Below are positions 21,907 through 26,695 of a stretch of DNA of 33,990 nucleotides, piece after piece. Under the pieces are notes generated by a model, which was not told where the DNA came from, did not search any database, and saw only the letters and a list, made by a program, of their open reading frames with translations. The DNA is from a virus (Duplodnaviria > Heunggongvirae > Uroviricota > Caudoviricetes). Position 1 is the stretch's first letter, and the number at the start of each line of letters is the position of its first letter. The stretch is from IMG/VR virus record IMGVR_UViG_2737471857_000019; one strand, given 5' to 3'. Position numbers and translations under genes: made by a program.

Positions 21907-22129
21907 GGCGGCTCCCGGGGTGAAGTTCCCGATGGAGGATAACGCCCGGAAATACATCACCACGGAAGCGGTGAACGTTGAGAACACCGCTTATTACCGG
22001 CGCGCCGTTCAGGACGGTGACCTGATTCTGGTGAAGGATGAGCCTGAAACCACCGTGACGGCTGAACAGGACGCCGTGCAGGTAAAAGCGAAGGCGAAGA
22101 GAGAGAAACAGGTGGATTCCGATGAGTGA
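21887..22129 (+). CDS. Mu gp38-like small protein (DUF2635-like)
   Basis: 80 aa ORF directly upstream of the sheath gene. Confidence 0.45.
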   Translation: MNKMKVKAAPGVKFPMEDNARKYITTEAVNVENTAYYRRAVQDGDLILVKDEPETTVTAEQDAVQVKAKAKREKQVDSDE

Positions 22130-23543
22130 AATTCAGTTTGACACCATTTCGGGCGGTATCCGTAAGCCCGGTGTGCATTTTGAGTTTAATACCCGGCTGG
22201 CCGTTAACACGCTGCCGGGTAATGAACAGCGTGTTCTTGTGATTGGTCCGATGCTGTCAGGCGGCACCGCCACGCCCCTGAATGCCGTTTCCGTGTATTC
22301 CGAAGACGAAGCGGATTTGTATTTCGGGGCCGGTTCGCTGGCCGCTGCAATGGCGCGCGCGGCCATTAATGCCAACAGCTATCTGCAACTGGATGTTATC
22401 GGTATTGCAGACAGTGGCGCAGGAAAGGCAGCAACCGGCGCGGTTACCGTCAGCGGTACGGCAATCAGCAGCGGCACACTGTCGGTATGGGTTGCCGGTG
22501 AGCAGGTCACGGTGGATGTGGAAACCGGTGATGAACCGTCGAAAATCATTCCGGCACTGGTGGAAGCAATGACGCAGACGCCCTCGCTTCTGGTGACGGG
22601 GGAATACAAATCAGAAACCTCTCAGCTGACGGTGACCACCCGGACCAAAGGAGCCTGGGGGAATGACATTACCCTGTCAGCGTCCACCACGGCAGGCGGT
22701 CTGACCGTGAACGCCACGCCGATGGCGAACGGCGAAATGGACCCGGATATTCAGCCCGCACTGGATGCAGTTTTCGCCGCCGGTCACAACATTCTGATTT
22801 GTCCGTTCAGTACCACGCCAGCCCTTGCCGCCCTGAAGCAGCATCTGGAGAAAACCGGGAACGCGATGGAACAGCGCGGCGCGATTGGCTGTGCGGGCTG
22901 GACGGGCAGTCTCGGGAACGGGATCACCCTGGCAGCTGGTGTGAACAGCGGGCGCGTGTCCGTCCCCTGGTATCGCGGCTCCGTGAAGCTGCCAGCGGTA
23001 CTGGCTGCCATCTACGGCGCTGTGATGGCGGGCGAGGAAGACCCGGCACGTCCGCTGAACTCGCTGGCGCTGTCCGGGCTGGATGTGGTCGCCATGTCAC
23101 AGCGTGAAAGCCGTAACGAGCAGGAAAACGCCCTGCATAACGGCCTGACGCCGGTTGAGGTTGGCCCGGGTAACACGGTGCAGATTGTGCGTGCGGTCAG
23201 TACGTACACGGTTAACGCACAGGGCGTGACTGACGTCTCGTTACTGGATGTCACGTCCATCAGAACGCTGGACTACACCCGCAAGGCGTGCCGCGAACGC
23301 ATCAGCCTTCGCTTCCCGCGCGAAAAACTCAGCACCCGTACTATCGCAAAAGTGGAAAGCGAACTGTATGACGTGCTGATTAAGCTGGAGGAAGCGGAGA
23401 TTCTGGAGAACGTGGAAGCGAACAAGGCAAAGCTGCGCGTTCAGCGAAACGGGAAAGATGCAAACCGTCTCGACTGCGTGGTTCCGGCGGATGTGGTTAA
23501 CGGCCTGCATGTGTTTGCCGGTCGCATCGACATGATTTTGTAA
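22122..23543 (+). CDS. tail sheath protein (Mu L-like)
   Basis: 473 aa ORF followed by a 124 aa tube-sized gene; contractile-tail synteny. Confidence 0.75.
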   Translation: MSEIQFDTISGGIRKPGVHFEFNTRLAVNTLPGNEQRVLVIGPMLSGGTATPLNAVSVYSEDEADLYFGAGSLAAAMARAAINANSYLQLDVIGIADSGAGKAATGAVTVSGTAISSGTLSVWVAGEQVTVDVETGDEPSKIIPALVEAMTQTPSLLVTGEYKSETSQLTVTTRTKGAWGNDITLSASTTAGGLTVNATPMANGEMDPDIQPALDAVFAAGHNILICPFSTTPALAALKQHLEKTGNAMEQRGAIGCAGWTGSLGNGITLAAGVNSGRVSVPWYRGSVKLPAVLAAIYGAVMAGEEDPARPLNSLALSGLDVVAMSQRESRNEQENALHNGLTPVEVGPGNTVQIVRAVSTYTVNAQGVTDVSLLDVTSIRTLDYTRKACRERISLRFPREKLSTRTIAKVESELYDVLIKLEEAEILENVEANKAKLRVQRNGKDANRLDCVVPADVVNGLHVFAGRIDMIL

Positions 23544-23555
23544 GGAGCGCGGTAA

Positions 23556-23930
23556 ATGTCCATTAAAGAATATGTCGGCTCGATTGTGCTGGAGGTGGAC
23601 AGCCAGGAAATCGAGATCACCGACTTTGATGTTCAGATCAACACCGGGCGAAAGCTGGTCAAGACCATGAACAAAACCGGCAGGGCCAAAGGCTTTGCCC
23701 GTGGCATTGCCACTTACGATATTTCAGTTTCGGCGGTTATCCCTGATACCAACGAGCCGGACTGGGAAAATCTGGAAGGTGTGAAAATCTCAATTTATCC
23801 GCTCAGTAACAGCGGTAAGCGCACCTCTTATCTGGACTGCTTCACCGTTGAAGTGGGTGAGAAATACACCGTCGACAGTGAAGCGAAAATTGATATCAAA
23901 ATGGCTGCACTCAGGAAGGTGACAGGATGA
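23556..23930 (+). CDS. tail tube protein (Mu M-like)
   Basis: 124 aa ORF after the sheath gene. Confidence 0.7.
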   Translation: MSIKEYVGSIVLEVDSQEIEITDFDVQINTGRKLVKTMNKTGRAKGFARGIATYDISVSAVIPDTNEPDWENLEGVKISIYPLSNSGKRTSYLDCFTVEVGEKYTVDSEAKIDIKMAALRKVTG

Positions 23931-24310
23931 CTTTGATTAATACACAGACTGGCGAACTGTCTGATGGCGTGGTGTTTAACGGCACCGTTCATAAAAACTT
24001 TGAGCTGCGTCTGCCGGTCATGCGTGATAACGGGCAGGCACTGGAAGAAACGGAAGAACGCTTTCAGACGGTGGATGGCTTCGCGGCGGATTATTACTAC
24101 CGCTGTGCGGTGATGGTGGCAACGCTGGTCCGTCTGGGGGATATTCCGCAGGAAGAACTGACGGCGGAGCTGTTACACGACAACATGACGCCGGACGATT
24201 TTAATATTCTGCTGGCATCACGCAACGTCCTGAAGGTAAAGCGGAACGGCGGGAATCCCGGCTCGCCGGACTCCGGCTCGCAGTCCTCATCCTCGGGCGC
24301 TACGGAATAA
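23927..24310 (+). CDS. tail assembly chaperone (short form)
   Basis: 127 aa ORF immediately upstream of the tape measure gene. Confidence 0.6.
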   Translation: MTLINTQTGELSDGVVFNGTVHKNFELRLPVMRDNGQALEETEERFQTVDGFAADYYYRCAVMVATLVRLGDIPQEELTAELLHDNMTPDDFNILLASRNVLKVKRNGGNPGSPDSGSQSSSSGATE

Positions 24311-24483
24311 CCGAAGAGCAAATCATGACCATGAGCCGTCCCGAGCTGGACGGCTGGCTTGCCGCCGTTGACAGGCTGAACGGCGGCGGCTCAGGAAGGA
24401 AGGACACCTCACAGACCACCCGCCAGTCATTTAAATCCCTCAGAAAGAAACGCAGAAAAGGTAAGCAGAAAAATGGCCGGTAA
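24290..24483 (+). CDS. -1 frame extension of the tail assembly chaperone (putative programmed-frameshift long form)
   Basis: The -1 frame is open across the chaperone 3' end and stops at TAA 24481-24483, overlapping the tape measure ATG 24473; slip site not identified. Confidence 0.45.
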
Positions 24484-26695
24484 TTTCAAAGTTGGCATGA
24501 CCCTGACTGCGAAGGACGAAGCCTCGCAGGTTCTGGAAAAGGGAAAAAAGAAGGTTGTAAAAGCCACTGAAGGAGTGGAAAAAGCAACCAAAAAGGCAGG
24601 TCAGGAACAGAAACGCACCGATGATGAGAGCGTCAACAGCACAAAAAGGGTTGTCACCGAATTACAGCGTGCAGCCCGTGCCCGGGAAACGCTTGGCATC
24701 CGTTCGGAGCATGAAATCCGTCGGGAAATCGCCCTTACTGAAGCCAGTTATAACCGCCTTGCCCGTAGTGGCGTTATGTCTGCCCGCGAACAGGCGCGGG
24801 CATGGCGTGCCACGAAAGAGCAAATCCGGGAACTGAAGCGGGAAATGCGTGGTGTCGGCACGCTGGCAAAGGCGGCCAATATTGGCGGCAACGTCCTGAC
24901 GATTGGTGGTGGTATCGCAGCAGGTGCGGCCATTATGGCGCAGCCGGTCAAAAAGCAGATGAGCTACGAACGCCGGCTGGCAATGATGGCCAATACCGCC
25001 TTCAGTGATGGCGGGCTGGAAGGGCGCAGGGCTGGTCTTGAGCAGATGAAAAGCAGCATCCGTAACGCGGTGACCTATGGCGGCGGTACGAAAGAAGACG
25101 CAGCCGAAACACTGGATGCCCTGCTGAAAGACGGCATTTCATTTGACACAGCCAACAAGTGGCTGCCTGAACTGATGAAATACGCCACGGCTTCTGGTGC
25201 ATCTGCAACAGACCTGGCCAACGTAATGGTCAAAGGAAAAAAGACCTTTGGATTCAGGGATGAAGATATTTCCACCGTTCTGAATATGGCGATTGCAGCG
25301 GGCAAAGAAGGCAGCTTTGAACTGAACGACATGGCCCGCTGGTTATCCCAGCAAATGGGCGCTGCGTCAGCTGCGGGGATGAAAGGCAAAGATGATTTCG
25401 TCAAGATTCTGGCGCTGAATGAAGCTGCCGCCATCACGGCTGGAAGCAGTGATGAAGCCGGAAATAACGTGGTTAACCTGCTGGCAAAACTGACCAGTAA
25501 GGATATTGAAACAGCGGCTGCGGGGATAAATTACAACGGTAAGGGAATCGACTTTTCCGGCACGCTGACTGAAGCACGTGAGAATGGACTTAATCCGATA
25601 GACGCGCTGTCCAGCCTGATAGACAAAATCGTTGCCAGCGATAAACGCTATCAGGAGCTGCAAAAGAAACTGGCCTCCGCCCGGGATAAAGGCGAGCAGA
25701 CGGCTGTTTATGATTCGATGGCAACACTCCTTGAAGGCTTTGGTGTCGGAAAGCTGGTTGCAGACCGTCAGGCGTTGATGGCGTTGTTAGCCTACCGTAA
25801 CAACCCTGAATACCGGAAAAAGGTTGAAGACGCGATTAATCAGCAGCGCACCCTGCCGGAAGGCCAGCGCGCGGGTGATGTGGATTTTAACTTCATATCC
25901 GGCCTCAATGACTTTAAAACCGAACAGGCTAAAAACACGCTTGAATTTTCACAAATGGACAGCATGAAAAAGCTGGCGGATGCGTCCGGTACTGTGGCCG
26001 ATGCCATAAGCTGGGCGGGTGAAAAATTTCCGGGGCTGACCACAGCAGTGGTGGGTGCCACGACCGCGATTGAAGCGATGACCGCAGCGGCTCTGACATG
26101 GGCCGGGATCAAAATCCTGACCGGGGGTAAACCCGGTGGCAAGGCTGGCGAGGTTGTCGGTGATGTAATTGAAAACACGGTCAAAAAAGGCAAAGGATTT
26201 AAATTCCCCGGCATTGCCGGTAGCCTGCTTTCTTTCGGTGGCACCGTTACGGCACTGGCCACCGCAACCAGCCCGGAAGAAGACGCCGCCGTCGAAGGAA
26301 GCGAAGAACGCTGGAAACGCATCCGCGCCCGATATCCCCAGGAAATCATCGACGCCGCCCGCAAAAAATACCAGCCATGGTGGCAGTTTGGGGAAGGCTA
26401 TTCCACCGAAAACGAAGAATGGTTGAGGCGCTGGGAGGAAGACACGAAAAAAGCCGCATCTGATGCCCTGCCATCACCGGCGCAGGTTAACAAAGCCGCA
26501 GGAAACACAACGCCTGAACCGGCATCAACGCAACCCGGACGCATCACCCAGCCGGAATACCTCACGCACTGGGGGCCACCTGCCAGCCCCATTAATTTCA
26601 CCACACAACTGGTGCTCGATGGTCAGGTCGTGGCGGAGGCAGTGAACAAATACAACCTTCAGGACGGTAACAGAGGCACGGGAGGAACTTACTGA
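24473..26695 (+). CDS. tail tape measure protein
   Basis: 740 aa Ala/Gly-rich protein between the chaperone and the DNA circularisation gene. Confidence 0.8.
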   Translation: MAGNFKVGMTLTAKDEASQVLEKGKKKVVKATEGVEKATKKAGQEQKRTDDESVNSTKRVVTELQRAARARETLGIRSEHEIRREIALTEASYNRLARSGVMSAREQARAWRATKEQIRELKREMRGVGTLAKAANIGGNVLTIGGGIAAGAAIMAQPVKKQMSYERRLAMMANTAFSDGGLEGRRAGLEQMKSSIRNAVTYGGGTKEDAAETLDALLKDGISFDTANKWLPELMKYATASGASATDLANVMVKGKKTFGFRDEDISTVLNMAIAAGKEGSFELNDMARWLSQQMGAASAAGMKGKDDFVKILALNEAAAITAGSSDEAGNNVVNLLAKLTSKDIETAAAGINYNGKGIDFSGTLTEARENGLNPIDALSSLIDKIVASDKRYQELQKKLASARDKGEQTAVYDSMATLLEGFGVGKLVADRQALMALLAYRNNPEYRKKVEDAINQQRTLPEGQRAGDVDFNFISGLNDFKTEQAKNTLEFSQMDSMKKLADASGTVADAISWAGEKFPGLTTAVVGATTAIEAMTAAALTWAGIKILTGGKPGGKAGEVVGDVIENTVKKGKGFKFPGIAGSLLSFGGTVTALATATSPEEDAAVEGSEERWKRIRARYPQEIIDAARKKYQPWWQFGEGYSTENEEWLRRWEEDTKKAASDALPSPAQVNKAAGNTTPEPASTQPGRITQPEYLTHWGPPASPINFTTQLVLDGQVVAEAVNKYNLQDGNRGTGGTY

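What the first reader, a model, noticed from the sequence alone, without database searches (positions are those of the whole stretch)
24290..24483. Probable programmed -1 frameshift extending the tail assembly chaperone
The frame at -1 relative to the chaperone is open through the chaperone 3' end and continues 57 codons past its stop (...GITEEQIMTMSRPELDGWLAAVDRLNGGG...KRRKGKQKNGR), terminating at TAA 24481-24483, which overlaps the tape measure ATG. This geometry matches the conserved chaperone frameshift of tailed phages (lambda G/GT). I could not find a canonical X-XXY-YYZ slippery heptamer, so the mechanism or site may be atypical.
Basis: partly seen in the sequence, partly recalled or inferred. 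Interest (0 to 1): 0.4.

Follow-up and report, generated by a model that had tools for sequence, protein, structure and literature searches.

The report
Tail chaperone -1 frameshift, non-canonical site
A Mu-like E. coli prophage very probably makes a long form of its tail assembly chaperone by a programmed -1 ribosomal frameshift at G_GUA_AAG (24235-24241), an ordinary phage device with a degenerate slip site that annotation pipelines miss.

Summary
The frame at -1 to the chaperone gene (23927-24310) is open from 24205 to TAA 24481-24483 and runs 57 codons past the chaperone stop. One coordinate is wrong: the internal ATG is at 24325, not 24318.

- **Relatives:** 39 loci compared have an in-frame A_AAG at this position. 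21 of them, the more distant ones, carry the canonical A_AAA_AAG. One lineage has G_GGA_AAG. The window's clade has G_GUA_AAG or G_GCA_AAG.
- **Frame opening:** in 20 loci the -1 frame opens exactly at the heptamer.
- **Selection:** third-position variability switches from the 0 frame to the -1 frame at the heptamer. That is before the chaperone stop and before any ATG, GTG or TTG.
- **Spacing:** the slip site lies 30 codons upstream of a conserved Met in nearly every lineage, while the 0-frame tail varies from 10 to 30 residues.

The predicted product is 185 aa (105 + 80). A stimulatory hairpin 5 nt downstream is possible but unproven. No protein evidence exists.

Verdict: a new, unannotated member of a known kind. 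Interest is modest.

The parts
23556..23930 (+). Tail tube gene (124 aa), immediately upstream of the chaperone
   Evidence: phrog_185 tail tube protein, E 3.3e-35. It follows the sheath gene 22122-23543, which matches Pfam Phage_sheath_1 and Phage_sheath_1C.
23927..24310 (+). Tail assembly chaperone, short (0-frame) form, 127 aa. Folded domain is residues 1-106; the tail 107-127 is predicted disordered and is low-complexity.
24235..24241 (+). Proposed -1 slip site G_GUA_AAG (0-frame codons ..G GUA AAG). The A_AAG tetramer is 24238-24241. After the slip the next codon read is GCG, 24241-24243.
   Evidence: It is the only conserved in-frame Z_ZZN motif in the overlap. All relatives compared have A_AAG here, in the heptamers A_AAA_AAG, G_GGA_AAG, G_GCA_AAG or G_GUA_AAG. 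In L003, L030/L031 and L065-L081 the -1 frame opens exactly at the heptamer. K105 and R106 are invariant in the protein alignments.
24241..24483 (+). T segment: 80 codons plus stop in the -1 frame, fused to residues 1-105 to give a predicted 185-aa long form
   Evidence: Translation. Variability peaks at the -1-frame third position from the slip site onward. The first 30 residues are conserved across 21 lineages with fixed spacing to a conserved Met. Matches phrog_3114, E 9.4e-19. The AlphaFold2 fusion model has helix 89-124 continuous through the junction.
24242..24277 (+). 36-nt nearly invariant, G+C-rich block just 3' of the slip site. It is dual-coding and contains the candidate stimulator.
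   Evidence: Mean variability is 0.01/0.117/0.038 by codon position, against 0.19/0.11/0.36 upstream. 24247-24270 is identical in all but two of the ten clade sequences aligned (L027, L030), which are only 54-66% identical as chaperone proteins.
24247..24268 (+). Candidate stimulatory hairpin: stem 24247-24253 (CGGCGGG) pairs with 24262-24268 (CUCGCCG), 7 bp, 8-nt loop, 5-nt spacer after the heptamer. UNPROVEN.
   Evidence: It is in the minimum-free-energy fold. The z-score is about -0.5 (not significant), there is no covariation and 6 of 7 pairs never vary. There is no Rfam match.
24325..24483 (+). 52-aa ORF as called by annotation pipelines (PGAP 'hypothetical protein'). It is the C-terminal part of the T segment.
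   Evidence: RefSeq annotation of E. coli relatives. Database proteins of 50-52 aa are called from this ATG. ATG 24325 corresponds to M134, inside the predicted T fold.
24473..26695 (+). Tape measure protein gene (740 aa). It overlaps the T stop by 11 nt.
   Evidence: Pfam PhageMin_Tail, E 5.1e-21; ORF list.

Best explanation
The region encodes the two forms of a tail assembly chaperone of a Mu-like contractile-tail prophage. Most ribosomes read 23927-24310 and make the 127-aa short form. A minority slip back one base at G_GUA_AAG (24235-24241).

Proposed mechanism (inferred): the single E. coli tRNA-Lys pairs weakly with AAG and re-pairs with AAA (24238-24240). The P-site tRNA-Val on GUA re-pairs only partly with GGU. 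Alternatively, tRNA-Lys slips alone in the P site while the rare CGG codon waits in the A site. Either route continues with GCG at 24241 and ends at TAA 24481-24483.

The product is a 185-aa fusion: the folded chaperone domain (1-105) joined to an 80-residue T segment (AERRESRLAGLRLAVLILGRYGITEEQIMTMSRPELDGW...KKRRKGKQKNGR).

By analogy with lambda gpG/gpGT, both forms would bind the tape measure protein through the shared domain. The T segment of the rare long form would recruit the tail tube protein to start polymerisation, and neither form would stay in the virion.

**Shown here:** the geometry, the conserved slip motif, the switch of selection to the -1 frame at the motif, the absence of a start codon, and the chaperone fold.

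**Inferred:** that frameshifting occurs at all, its efficiency (probably 0.1% to a few %), the role of the 3' G+C-rich hairpin, and the function of the T segment.
For: 1. **Position.** The ORF pair lies between the tube and tape measure genes of a Mu-like tail module.
3. **Conserved slip motif.** All 39 loci compared have an in-frame A_AAG at the invariant L-K-x-K-R position. 21 more distant loci have the canonical A_AAA_AAG, L029 has G_GGA_AAG, and the window's clade has G_GUA_AAG or G_GCA_AAG.
4. **Frame opening.** In 20 loci (L003, L030/L031, L065-L081) the -1 frame opens exactly at the first base of the heptamer. In L030 the 0-frame stop follows 39 nt after the AAG codon, so the shift there is confined to 43 nt that contain no other slippery motif.
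5. **Selection.** In 14 distinct clade sequences, variability peaks at the 0-frame third position upstream of the heptamer (0.36). In 24278-24310 it peaks at the -1-frame third position (0.318), still inside the chaperone ORF and before ATG 24325.
6. **T segment conservation.** The first 30 -1-frame residues are 0.47-0.87 identical to the window in 14 of 21 lineages. The 0-frame tail is 0.09-0.83 identical and varies from 10 to 30 residues. The slip-to-Met spacing is 30 codons in nearly all.
7. **No start codon.** There is no ATG, GTG or TTG in the -1 frame from 24205 to 24324, and no consistent Shine-Dalgarno sequence before the conserved ATG in relatives.
8. **Domain boundary.** The predicted chaperone fold ends at K105/R106 and the 0-frame tail is disordered. 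In the fusion model, helix 89-124 runs through the junction and M134 (ATG 24325) sits inside the T fold.
9. **Literature.** A_AA.G is the most shift-prone tetramer in E. coli, reaching 5.6% with a strong 3' pseudoknot, and IS elements use it (PMC4066793). The lambda G:GT ratio is about 30:1 (PMC5009743).
Against: - There is no protein, ribosome-profiling or reporter evidence.
- The heptamer is not canonical. The P-site GUA to GGU re-pairing has a mismatch at the middle position.
- A_AA.G tetramers without a stimulator are barely above background (about 0.15%, PMC4066793).
- The candidate 3' hairpin has no statistical or covariation support.
- A Met at 24331 is conserved in all relatives and could serve as an independent start.
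- RefSeq and gene callers treat the 52-aa ORF as a separate gene.
- The near-invariance of 24242-24277 could be explained by dual coding alone.
Confidence: 0.8

Rival explanations
1. The 52-aa (or 50-aa) ORF is an independent small gene. It would be translated from ATG 24325 or 24331, perhaps by coupling or re-initiation after termination at TAA 24308-24310, and no fusion would be made.
For: The Met at 24331 is conserved in every relative. A weak GAAGAG lies 6 nt before ATG 24325. The chaperone stop is only 15-21 nt upstream. PGAP and other gene callers annotate it this way, and phrog_3114 models it as a 56-aa protein.
Against: The -1 frame shows the signature of purifying selection for about 28 codons upstream of this ATG, where no start codon exists. 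The slippery motif is conserved at a fixed 30-codon distance. Relatives have no consistent SD sequence: L033 has none and in L003 it abuts the ATG. The GAAGAG is simply the conserved Glu-Glu codons. The predicted T fold begins at the junction, not at the Met. This rival could still be true in addition to the frameshift.
Confidence: 0.1
2. A -1 frameshift does occur, but at another place or by another route within 24205-24307: for example at G_GGC 24295-24298, by a -2/+1 shift as in phage Mu, or by transcriptional slippage.
For: The heptamer is non-canonical. G_GGC is the only other Z_ZZN motif in the overlap. Phage Mu, with the same gene order, uses a -2 shift on GG_GGG_CGA (PMC3458567).
Against: G_GGC is not conserved (TCG GAC in L019 and L023) and lies downstream of the 0-frame stop of L030. 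G_GG.N tetramers are not shift-prone in E. coli (PMC4066793). The +1/-2 frame runs only 20 codons past the stop and is not the conserved one. There is no GG_GGG_CGA motif and no similarity to Mu gp41. The window has only three A in a row and no run of 5 or more, so RNA polymerase slippage is implausible. Selection on the -1 frame starts at 24241, not later.
Confidence: 0.06
3. The -1 ORF is a non-functional remnant or chance open frame in a decaying prophage, and nothing beyond the short chaperone matters.
For: The element is a prophage. Several database relatives come from indel-laden assemblies (P0032, P0040, P0046, P0049).
Against: An open run of 92 codons has P of about 0.004 by chance. 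The peptide is conserved down to about 35-45% identity in many lineages from Klebsiella, Ralstonia, Serratia and metagenomes, with codon-position periodicity of variation.
Confidence: 0.02

Closest known systems
Lambda gpG/gpGT, and HK97, P2 E/E+E' and other tail assembly chaperone -1 frameshifts (Levin 1993; Xu, Hendrix & Duda 2004)
   Different: There is no detectable sequence similarity to the characterised chaperones: no Pfam hit and only a fold-level match. The slip site is G_GUA_AAG, which is not an X_XXY_YYZ heptamer (lambda uses G_GGA_AAG). The host phage has a Mu-like contractile tail. Nothing has been tested experimentally.
Phage Mu gp41 / Mu_56 long form (-2 frameshift on GG_GGG_CGA)
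   Same: The overall tail module has the same order (gp36/gp37-like, DUF2635, sheath, tube, chaperone, tape measure, DNA circularisation protein) and the chaperone sits in the same place.
   Different: The shift here is -1, not -2. The slip motif is different. BLASTP finds no similarity between the two chaperones.
A_AAG tetramer -1 frameshift signals of IS3-family insertion sequences, and the E. coli dnaX A_AAA_AAG site
   Same: Both rely on tRNA-Lys re-pairing from AAG to AAA, the strongest determinant of -1 slippage in E. coli (PMC4066793). Relatives of this locus carry the dnaX-type heptamer A_AAA_AAG. The window keeps only the A-site half, as IS3 does.
   Different: IS3 and dnaX have demonstrated stimulators (pseudoknot, hairpin, upstream SD). 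Here only an unsupported candidate hairpin was found. The gene context and product function also differ.
Non-XXXYYYZ slip motifs catalogued for tail assembly chaperones by PRFect (PMC10885494)
   Same: That study reports annotated chaperone frameshifts without a 'threethree' motif, including motifs such as 'twoonefour' (XX-Y-ZZZZ) that resemble GG-U-AAAG.
   Different: Those motifs come mostly from actinobacteriophage annotations and are untested. GGUAAAG is not literally one of the listed patterns.

Membership tests
Tail assembly chaperone G/GT-type programmed frameshift | Two overlapping ORFs located between the major tail (tube) gene and the tape measure gene | tested here: met
   Tube 23556-23930 (phrog_185), chaperone 23927-24310, -1 ORF ending at 24483, tape measure 24473-26695 (PhageMin_Tail).
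Tail assembly chaperone G/GT-type programmed frameshift | The upstream ORF is a tail assembly chaperone by homology or fold | tested here: met
Tail assembly chaperone G/GT-type programmed frameshift | The downstream coding sequence is in the -1 frame, is under selection from within the overlap, and lacks its own start there | tested here: met
   The periodicity of variation switches to the -1 frame at the heptamer. The first 30 residues are conserved and the spacing is fixed. No ATG, GTG or TTG from 24205 to 24324.
Tail assembly chaperone G/GT-type programmed frameshift | A conserved slippery sequence in the overlap | tested here: met
   In-frame A_AAG in all 39 loci compared. Canonical A_AAA_AAG or G_GGA_AAG in 22 loci.
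Tail assembly chaperone G/GT-type programmed frameshift | The slippery sequence is a canonical X_XXY_YYZ heptamer in this genome | tested here: not met
   The window has G_GUA_AAG and no canonical heptamer anywhere in 24205-24307. This is typical of the family but not strictly defining, since Mu uses -2 and other non-canonical motifs are reported (PMC3458567, PMC10885494).
Tail assembly chaperone G/GT-type programmed frameshift | The fusion protein is made at a low, fixed ratio and is required for tail assembly | not testable with these tools
   Needs a reporter assay, mass spectrometry or western blot, and phage genetics.
IS3-type A_AAG tetramer -1 frameshift signal | A_AAG in the 0 frame with a non-slippery P-site codon | tested here: met
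   GUA AAG at 24236-24241; the P-site re-pairing GUA to GGU has a central mismatch.
IS3-type A_AAG tetramer -1 frameshift signal | A 3' stimulatory hairpin or pseudoknot 5-9 nt downstream | tested here: inconclusive
   A 7-bp G+C-rich stem (24247-53 with 24262-68) with a 5-nt spacer is in the MFE fold, but the z-score is -0.5 and there is no covariation. The 3' 45-nt MFE is -18.0 in the clade against -12.1 kcal/mol in A_AAA_AAG relatives, which is explained by G+C content.
Phage Mu gp41 -2 frameshift | GG_GGG_CGA slip site and -2 geometry | tested here: not met
   The motif is absent. The conserved extension is in the -1 frame, and the -2/+1 frame runs only 20 codons past the stop.
Phage Mu gp41 -2 frameshift | Sequence homology to Mu gp41 | tested here: not met
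   BLASTP finds no alignment at E of 100 or better.
Rfam frameshift elements | Match to a curated frameshift-stimulating RNA family | tested here: not met
   The only hit is a chance-level sRNA match on the opposite strand, E 0.22.

The most novel reading that the evidence does not exclude
In this clade the ancestral dnaX-type heptamer A_AAA_AAG has decayed to a bare A_AAG tetramer (G_GGA_AAG, then G_GYA_AAG). The loss of P-site slipperiness would be compensated by a newly fixed, nearly invariant G+C-rich 3' element (24242-24277) acting as a strong stimulator. If so, this family is a natural series showing how slip site and stimulator co-evolve to hold a chaperone ratio constant. A related oddity: some relatives (A6 instead of A8) encode the long form in frame and would need the opposite shift, or none, to make the short form.
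Probability: 0.3. Interest if true: 0.45.

Novelty: new member of a known kind. Interest (0 to 1): 0.3.

Why it matters
The biology is the well-known tail assembly chaperone frameshift, so the gain is mostly in annotation and detail.

**Annotation.** The analysis gives a function to two 'hypothetical proteins' (phrog_508 plus the unknown-function phrog_3114) that recur in Mu-like prophages. At least 55 complete E. coli genomes carry close relatives, as do Klebsiella, Citrobacter, Serratia and Ralstonia phages. No source annotates the fusion in any of them.

**Tools.** Heptamer-based frameshift finders miss this site because only the A-site half of the motif is slippery.

**A possible test set.** The family offers a graded natural series at one homologous position: A_AAA_AAG, G_GGA_AAG, G_GCA_AAG and G_GUA_AAG. 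It could be used to measure how much P-site re-pairing contributes to -1 frameshifting in E. coli.

Tried and rejected
- **Pfam** scan of the chaperone and the 52-aa ORF gave no hits.
- **Rfam** scan of 24000-24600 gave nothing relevant.
- **DNA search of the phage collection** returned only short tube-gene matches. tblastn gave four distant phages, which turned out to be useful.
- **The genome-contig scan** with the chaperone alignment yielded only 3 loci, because the search pattern was anchored on the clade-specific motif.
- **The broad T-peptide alignment** was too divergent for a locus search; a narrower one worked.
- **RNA folding** of the 3' region in the window and eight relatives gave no significant z-scores. 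The pair count showed no covariation. A hand-built H-type pseudoknot (loop CCCGG 24257-61 with UCGGG 24293-97) was dropped because G24297 varies to A without compensation.
- **An upstream SD-like stimulator:** AGGU overlaps the heptamer, which is too close for -1 stimulation, and it is absent in L026.
- **Homology to Mu gp41** was rejected.
- **Database proteins that read through the junction** (P0049, P0032, P0046, P0060) come from indel-ridden assemblies and were not counted as evidence.
- **Single-ORF fusions in Logan assemblies** (P0059, P0064) are real sequences in several samples, but they may be homopolymer mutations. They were used only as alignment rows for structure prediction, not as proof.

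Full report
**Observation.** The window around the finding is a Mu-like contractile-tail module. It contains:
- sheath, 22122-23543 (Pfam Phage_sheath_1 and Phage_sheath_1C);
- tube, 23556-23930 (phrog_185);
- a 127-aa ORF, 23927-24310 (phrog_508 'tail assembly chaperone', E 2.6e-40);
- a 52-aa ORF, 24325-24483 (phrog_3114, unknown function);
- tape measure gene, 24473-26695 (PhageMin_Tail).

Close relatives (94-96% DNA identity) are prophages in at least 55 complete E. coli genomes. RefSeq calls both small ORFs 'hypothetical protein' and annotates no frameshift.

The -1 frame relative to the chaperone is open from 24205 to TAA 24481-24483. It overlaps the chaperone by 103 nt and runs 57 codons beyond its stop. 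There is no X_XXY_YYZ heptamer and no homopolymer of 5 or more bases in the overlap. Given the stop frequency in the -1 frames of the window's genes, an open run of 92 codons has P of about 0.004. A -1 ORF after a gene end is common here, so geometry alone proves little.

**Locating the slip site.** I collected relatives from several sources: viral contigs, species-representative genomes, GenBank phages (Klebsiella phage ST405-OXA48phi1.1, Ralstonia phage YO374_1 and two faecal phages) and E. coli genomes. Chaperone identity to the window ranges from 100% down to about 37%. A second search keyed on the downstream peptide added 17 more divergent loci.

In every locus there is one in-frame A_AAG inside the overlap, at the invariant protein motif L-K-x-K-R (K105 and R106 are invariant). 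The heptamers are:
- A_AAA_AAG in 21 more distant loci (L003, L033-L035, L065-L081);
- G_GGA_AAG in L029;
- G_GCA_AAG in L022 and L025-L028;
- G_GUA_AAG in the window's clade, L023 and L030/L031.

In L003, L030/L031 and all of L065-L081, a stop closes the -1 frame immediately before the heptamer, so that frame can only be entered there or later. In L030 the 0-frame stop follows 39 nt after the AAG codon. This confines the shift to 43 nt that contain no other slippery motif.

The homologous site in the window is G_GUA_AAG, 24235-24241. Here the ancestral canonical heptamer has kept only its A-site half.

**Evidence that the -1 frame is translated from the slip site, not from the ATG.** Four lines point the same way.
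- **Codon-position variability.** In 14 distinct clade sequences, nucleotide variability upstream of the heptamer peaks at the 0-frame third position (0.36, against 0.11-0.19). The 36 nt after the heptamer are almost invariant (0.01/0.117/0.038). In 24278-24310, still inside the chaperone ORF, the peak moves to the position that is third in the -1 frame (0.318, against 0.08-0.11).
- **Peptide conservation.** Across 21 lineages, the first 30 -1-frame residues (AERRESRLAGLRLAVLILGRYGITEEQIMT) all lie upstream of the conserved Met. In 14 of the 21 lineages they are 0.47-0.87 identical to the window, and often more conserved than the last 30 residues of the chaperone domain. The 0-frame tail is low-complexity, 0.09-0.83 identical, and varies from 10 to 30 residues.
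- **Fixed spacing.** The distance from the slip site to the conserved Met is 30 codons in nearly all lineages.
- **No start signal.** No ATG, GTG or TTG occurs in the -1 frame between 24205 and 24324. Relatives show no consistent Shine-Dalgarno sequence before the Met.

A model of the conceptual 185-aa fusion was built with five natural single-ORF fusions as alignment rows. It predicts that helix 89-124 runs straight through the junction K105|A106, followed by helices 130-134 and 138-151 at pLDDT of about 80, and then a disordered basic tail. ATG 24325 is M134, inside this predicted fold. The alignment is shallow, so this is supportive only.

**Mechanism.** E. coli has one tRNA-Lys that reads AAG weakly and AAA well (established knowledge). 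A_AA.G is the most shift-prone tetramer in E. coli. It reaches 5.6% with a strong 3' pseudoknot but stays near background without a stimulator, and IS3-family elements use it (PMC4066793).

In G_GUA_AAG the P-site tRNA-Val would re-pair with GGU with a central mismatch. The event is therefore either a tandem slip with poor P-site re-pairing or a single-tRNA slip, and the rare CGG codon that follows may help. Either route gives ...NVLKVK-AERRES....

A low percentage would suit this system, since lambda makes G and GT at about 30:1 (PMC5009743).

A 7-bp G+C-rich hairpin (24247-53 with 24262-68) with a 5-nt spacer is in the minimum-free-energy fold. Its stability is not beyond shuffled controls (z about -0.5), and its pairs never vary, so covariation cannot be judged.

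The 3' 45 nt fold more stably in the non-canonical clade (-18.0 kcal/mol, n=12) than in A_AAA_AAG relatives (-12.1, n=17). This tracks G+C content and one phylogenetic split. The stimulator is therefore a hypothesis, not a finding. Transcriptional slippage is implausible in the window, which has only three A in a row. It cannot be excluded for relatives carrying the T-A8-G run.

**Comparison with known systems.** Functionally this is the lambda G/GT, HK97 and P2 E/E+E' arrangement. Phage Mu itself has the same gene order and a verified long form. However, Mu uses a -2 shift on GG_GGG_CGA (PMC3458567; GenBank AF083977 annotation), and its gp41 has no detectable similarity to this chaperone. Non-XXXYYYZ motifs in chaperone frameshifts have been catalogued computationally (PMC10885494).

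**Rivals.**
- Separate translation of the 52-aa ORF cannot be excluded as an additional product. It does not explain the conserved, start-less 28 codons upstream.
- A shift elsewhere in the overlap, a -2 shift, or a dead ORF are each contradicted by the comparative data.

**Verdict.** This is a new, currently unannotated member of a well-known kind with a mildly unusual slip site. Direct protein evidence is lacking. Interest is modest (0.3).

Noticed in passing
L037 2501-3013; L038 2501-3013; L039 16-528; L040 588-1100 (relatives, not the window): Four assemblies from different sequencing runs encode the chaperone and T segment as one continuous 170-aa ORF (P0059, P0064). The A-run at the slip site is A6 (CTT AAA AAA GCG) instead of A8, so the long form is the 0-frame product. 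The short-form tail lies in the +1 frame, open for about 33 codons. A 171-aa variant (P0072; its A-run length was not checked) and 131-aa short forms fall in the same 90% cluster. These could be homopolymer mutations or errors, or phages that make only, or mainly, the long form.
   Followed up: partly
L003, L033-L035, L065-L081 (relatives): Most distant relatives have T-A8-G at the slip site. The T plus two A form the TAA that closes the -1 frame just before the heptamer. A run of eight A could also support RNA polymerase slippage, giving the same fusion by a second route.
   Followed up: no
window 24258-24266 and 24273-24281: The 9-nt direct repeat CCGGCTCGC occurs twice, 6 nt apart, within the dual-coding block. 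It encodes PGS/SGS in the 0 frame and RLA/RLA in the -1 frame. It contributes several alternative CCGG-based pairings to the predicted folds.
   Followed up: partly
window 24473-24483: The tape measure ATG (24473) lies 8 nt upstream of the T-segment stop (ATGGCCGGTAA). This 11-nt overlap is conserved throughout the clade, which suggests translational coupling of the tape measure gene to the upstream ORFs.
   Followed up: no
window 24242-24277, 0 frame (chaperone residues 106-117): The 0-frame tail motif R-N/S-G-G-N-P-G-S-P-D-S is nearly invariant in the clade, although it is predicted disordered and is absent from relatives with the canonical heptamer. Whether the constraint acts on this peptide, on the -1-frame peptide or on the RNA could not be separated.
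   Followed up: partly
RefSeq E. coli relatives (L001 3770-3928, L002 2270-2428): PGAP annotates the T segment as a stand-alone 52-aa hypothetical protein and the chaperone as 'hypothetical protein' in the relatives inspected; at least 55 complete E. coli genomes carry this region. No ribosomal-slippage feature is annotated, and PHROGs lists the T part (phrog_3114) as unknown function.
   Followed up: yes
database proteins P0032, P0040, P0046, P0049, P0060: Several E. coli and Serratia database entries for this locus are chimeric readings across frames. P0049, for example, reads ...KVK|AERRES... in one ORF. They come from assemblies with many indels, and they could be mistaken for natural fusions.
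   Followed up: partly
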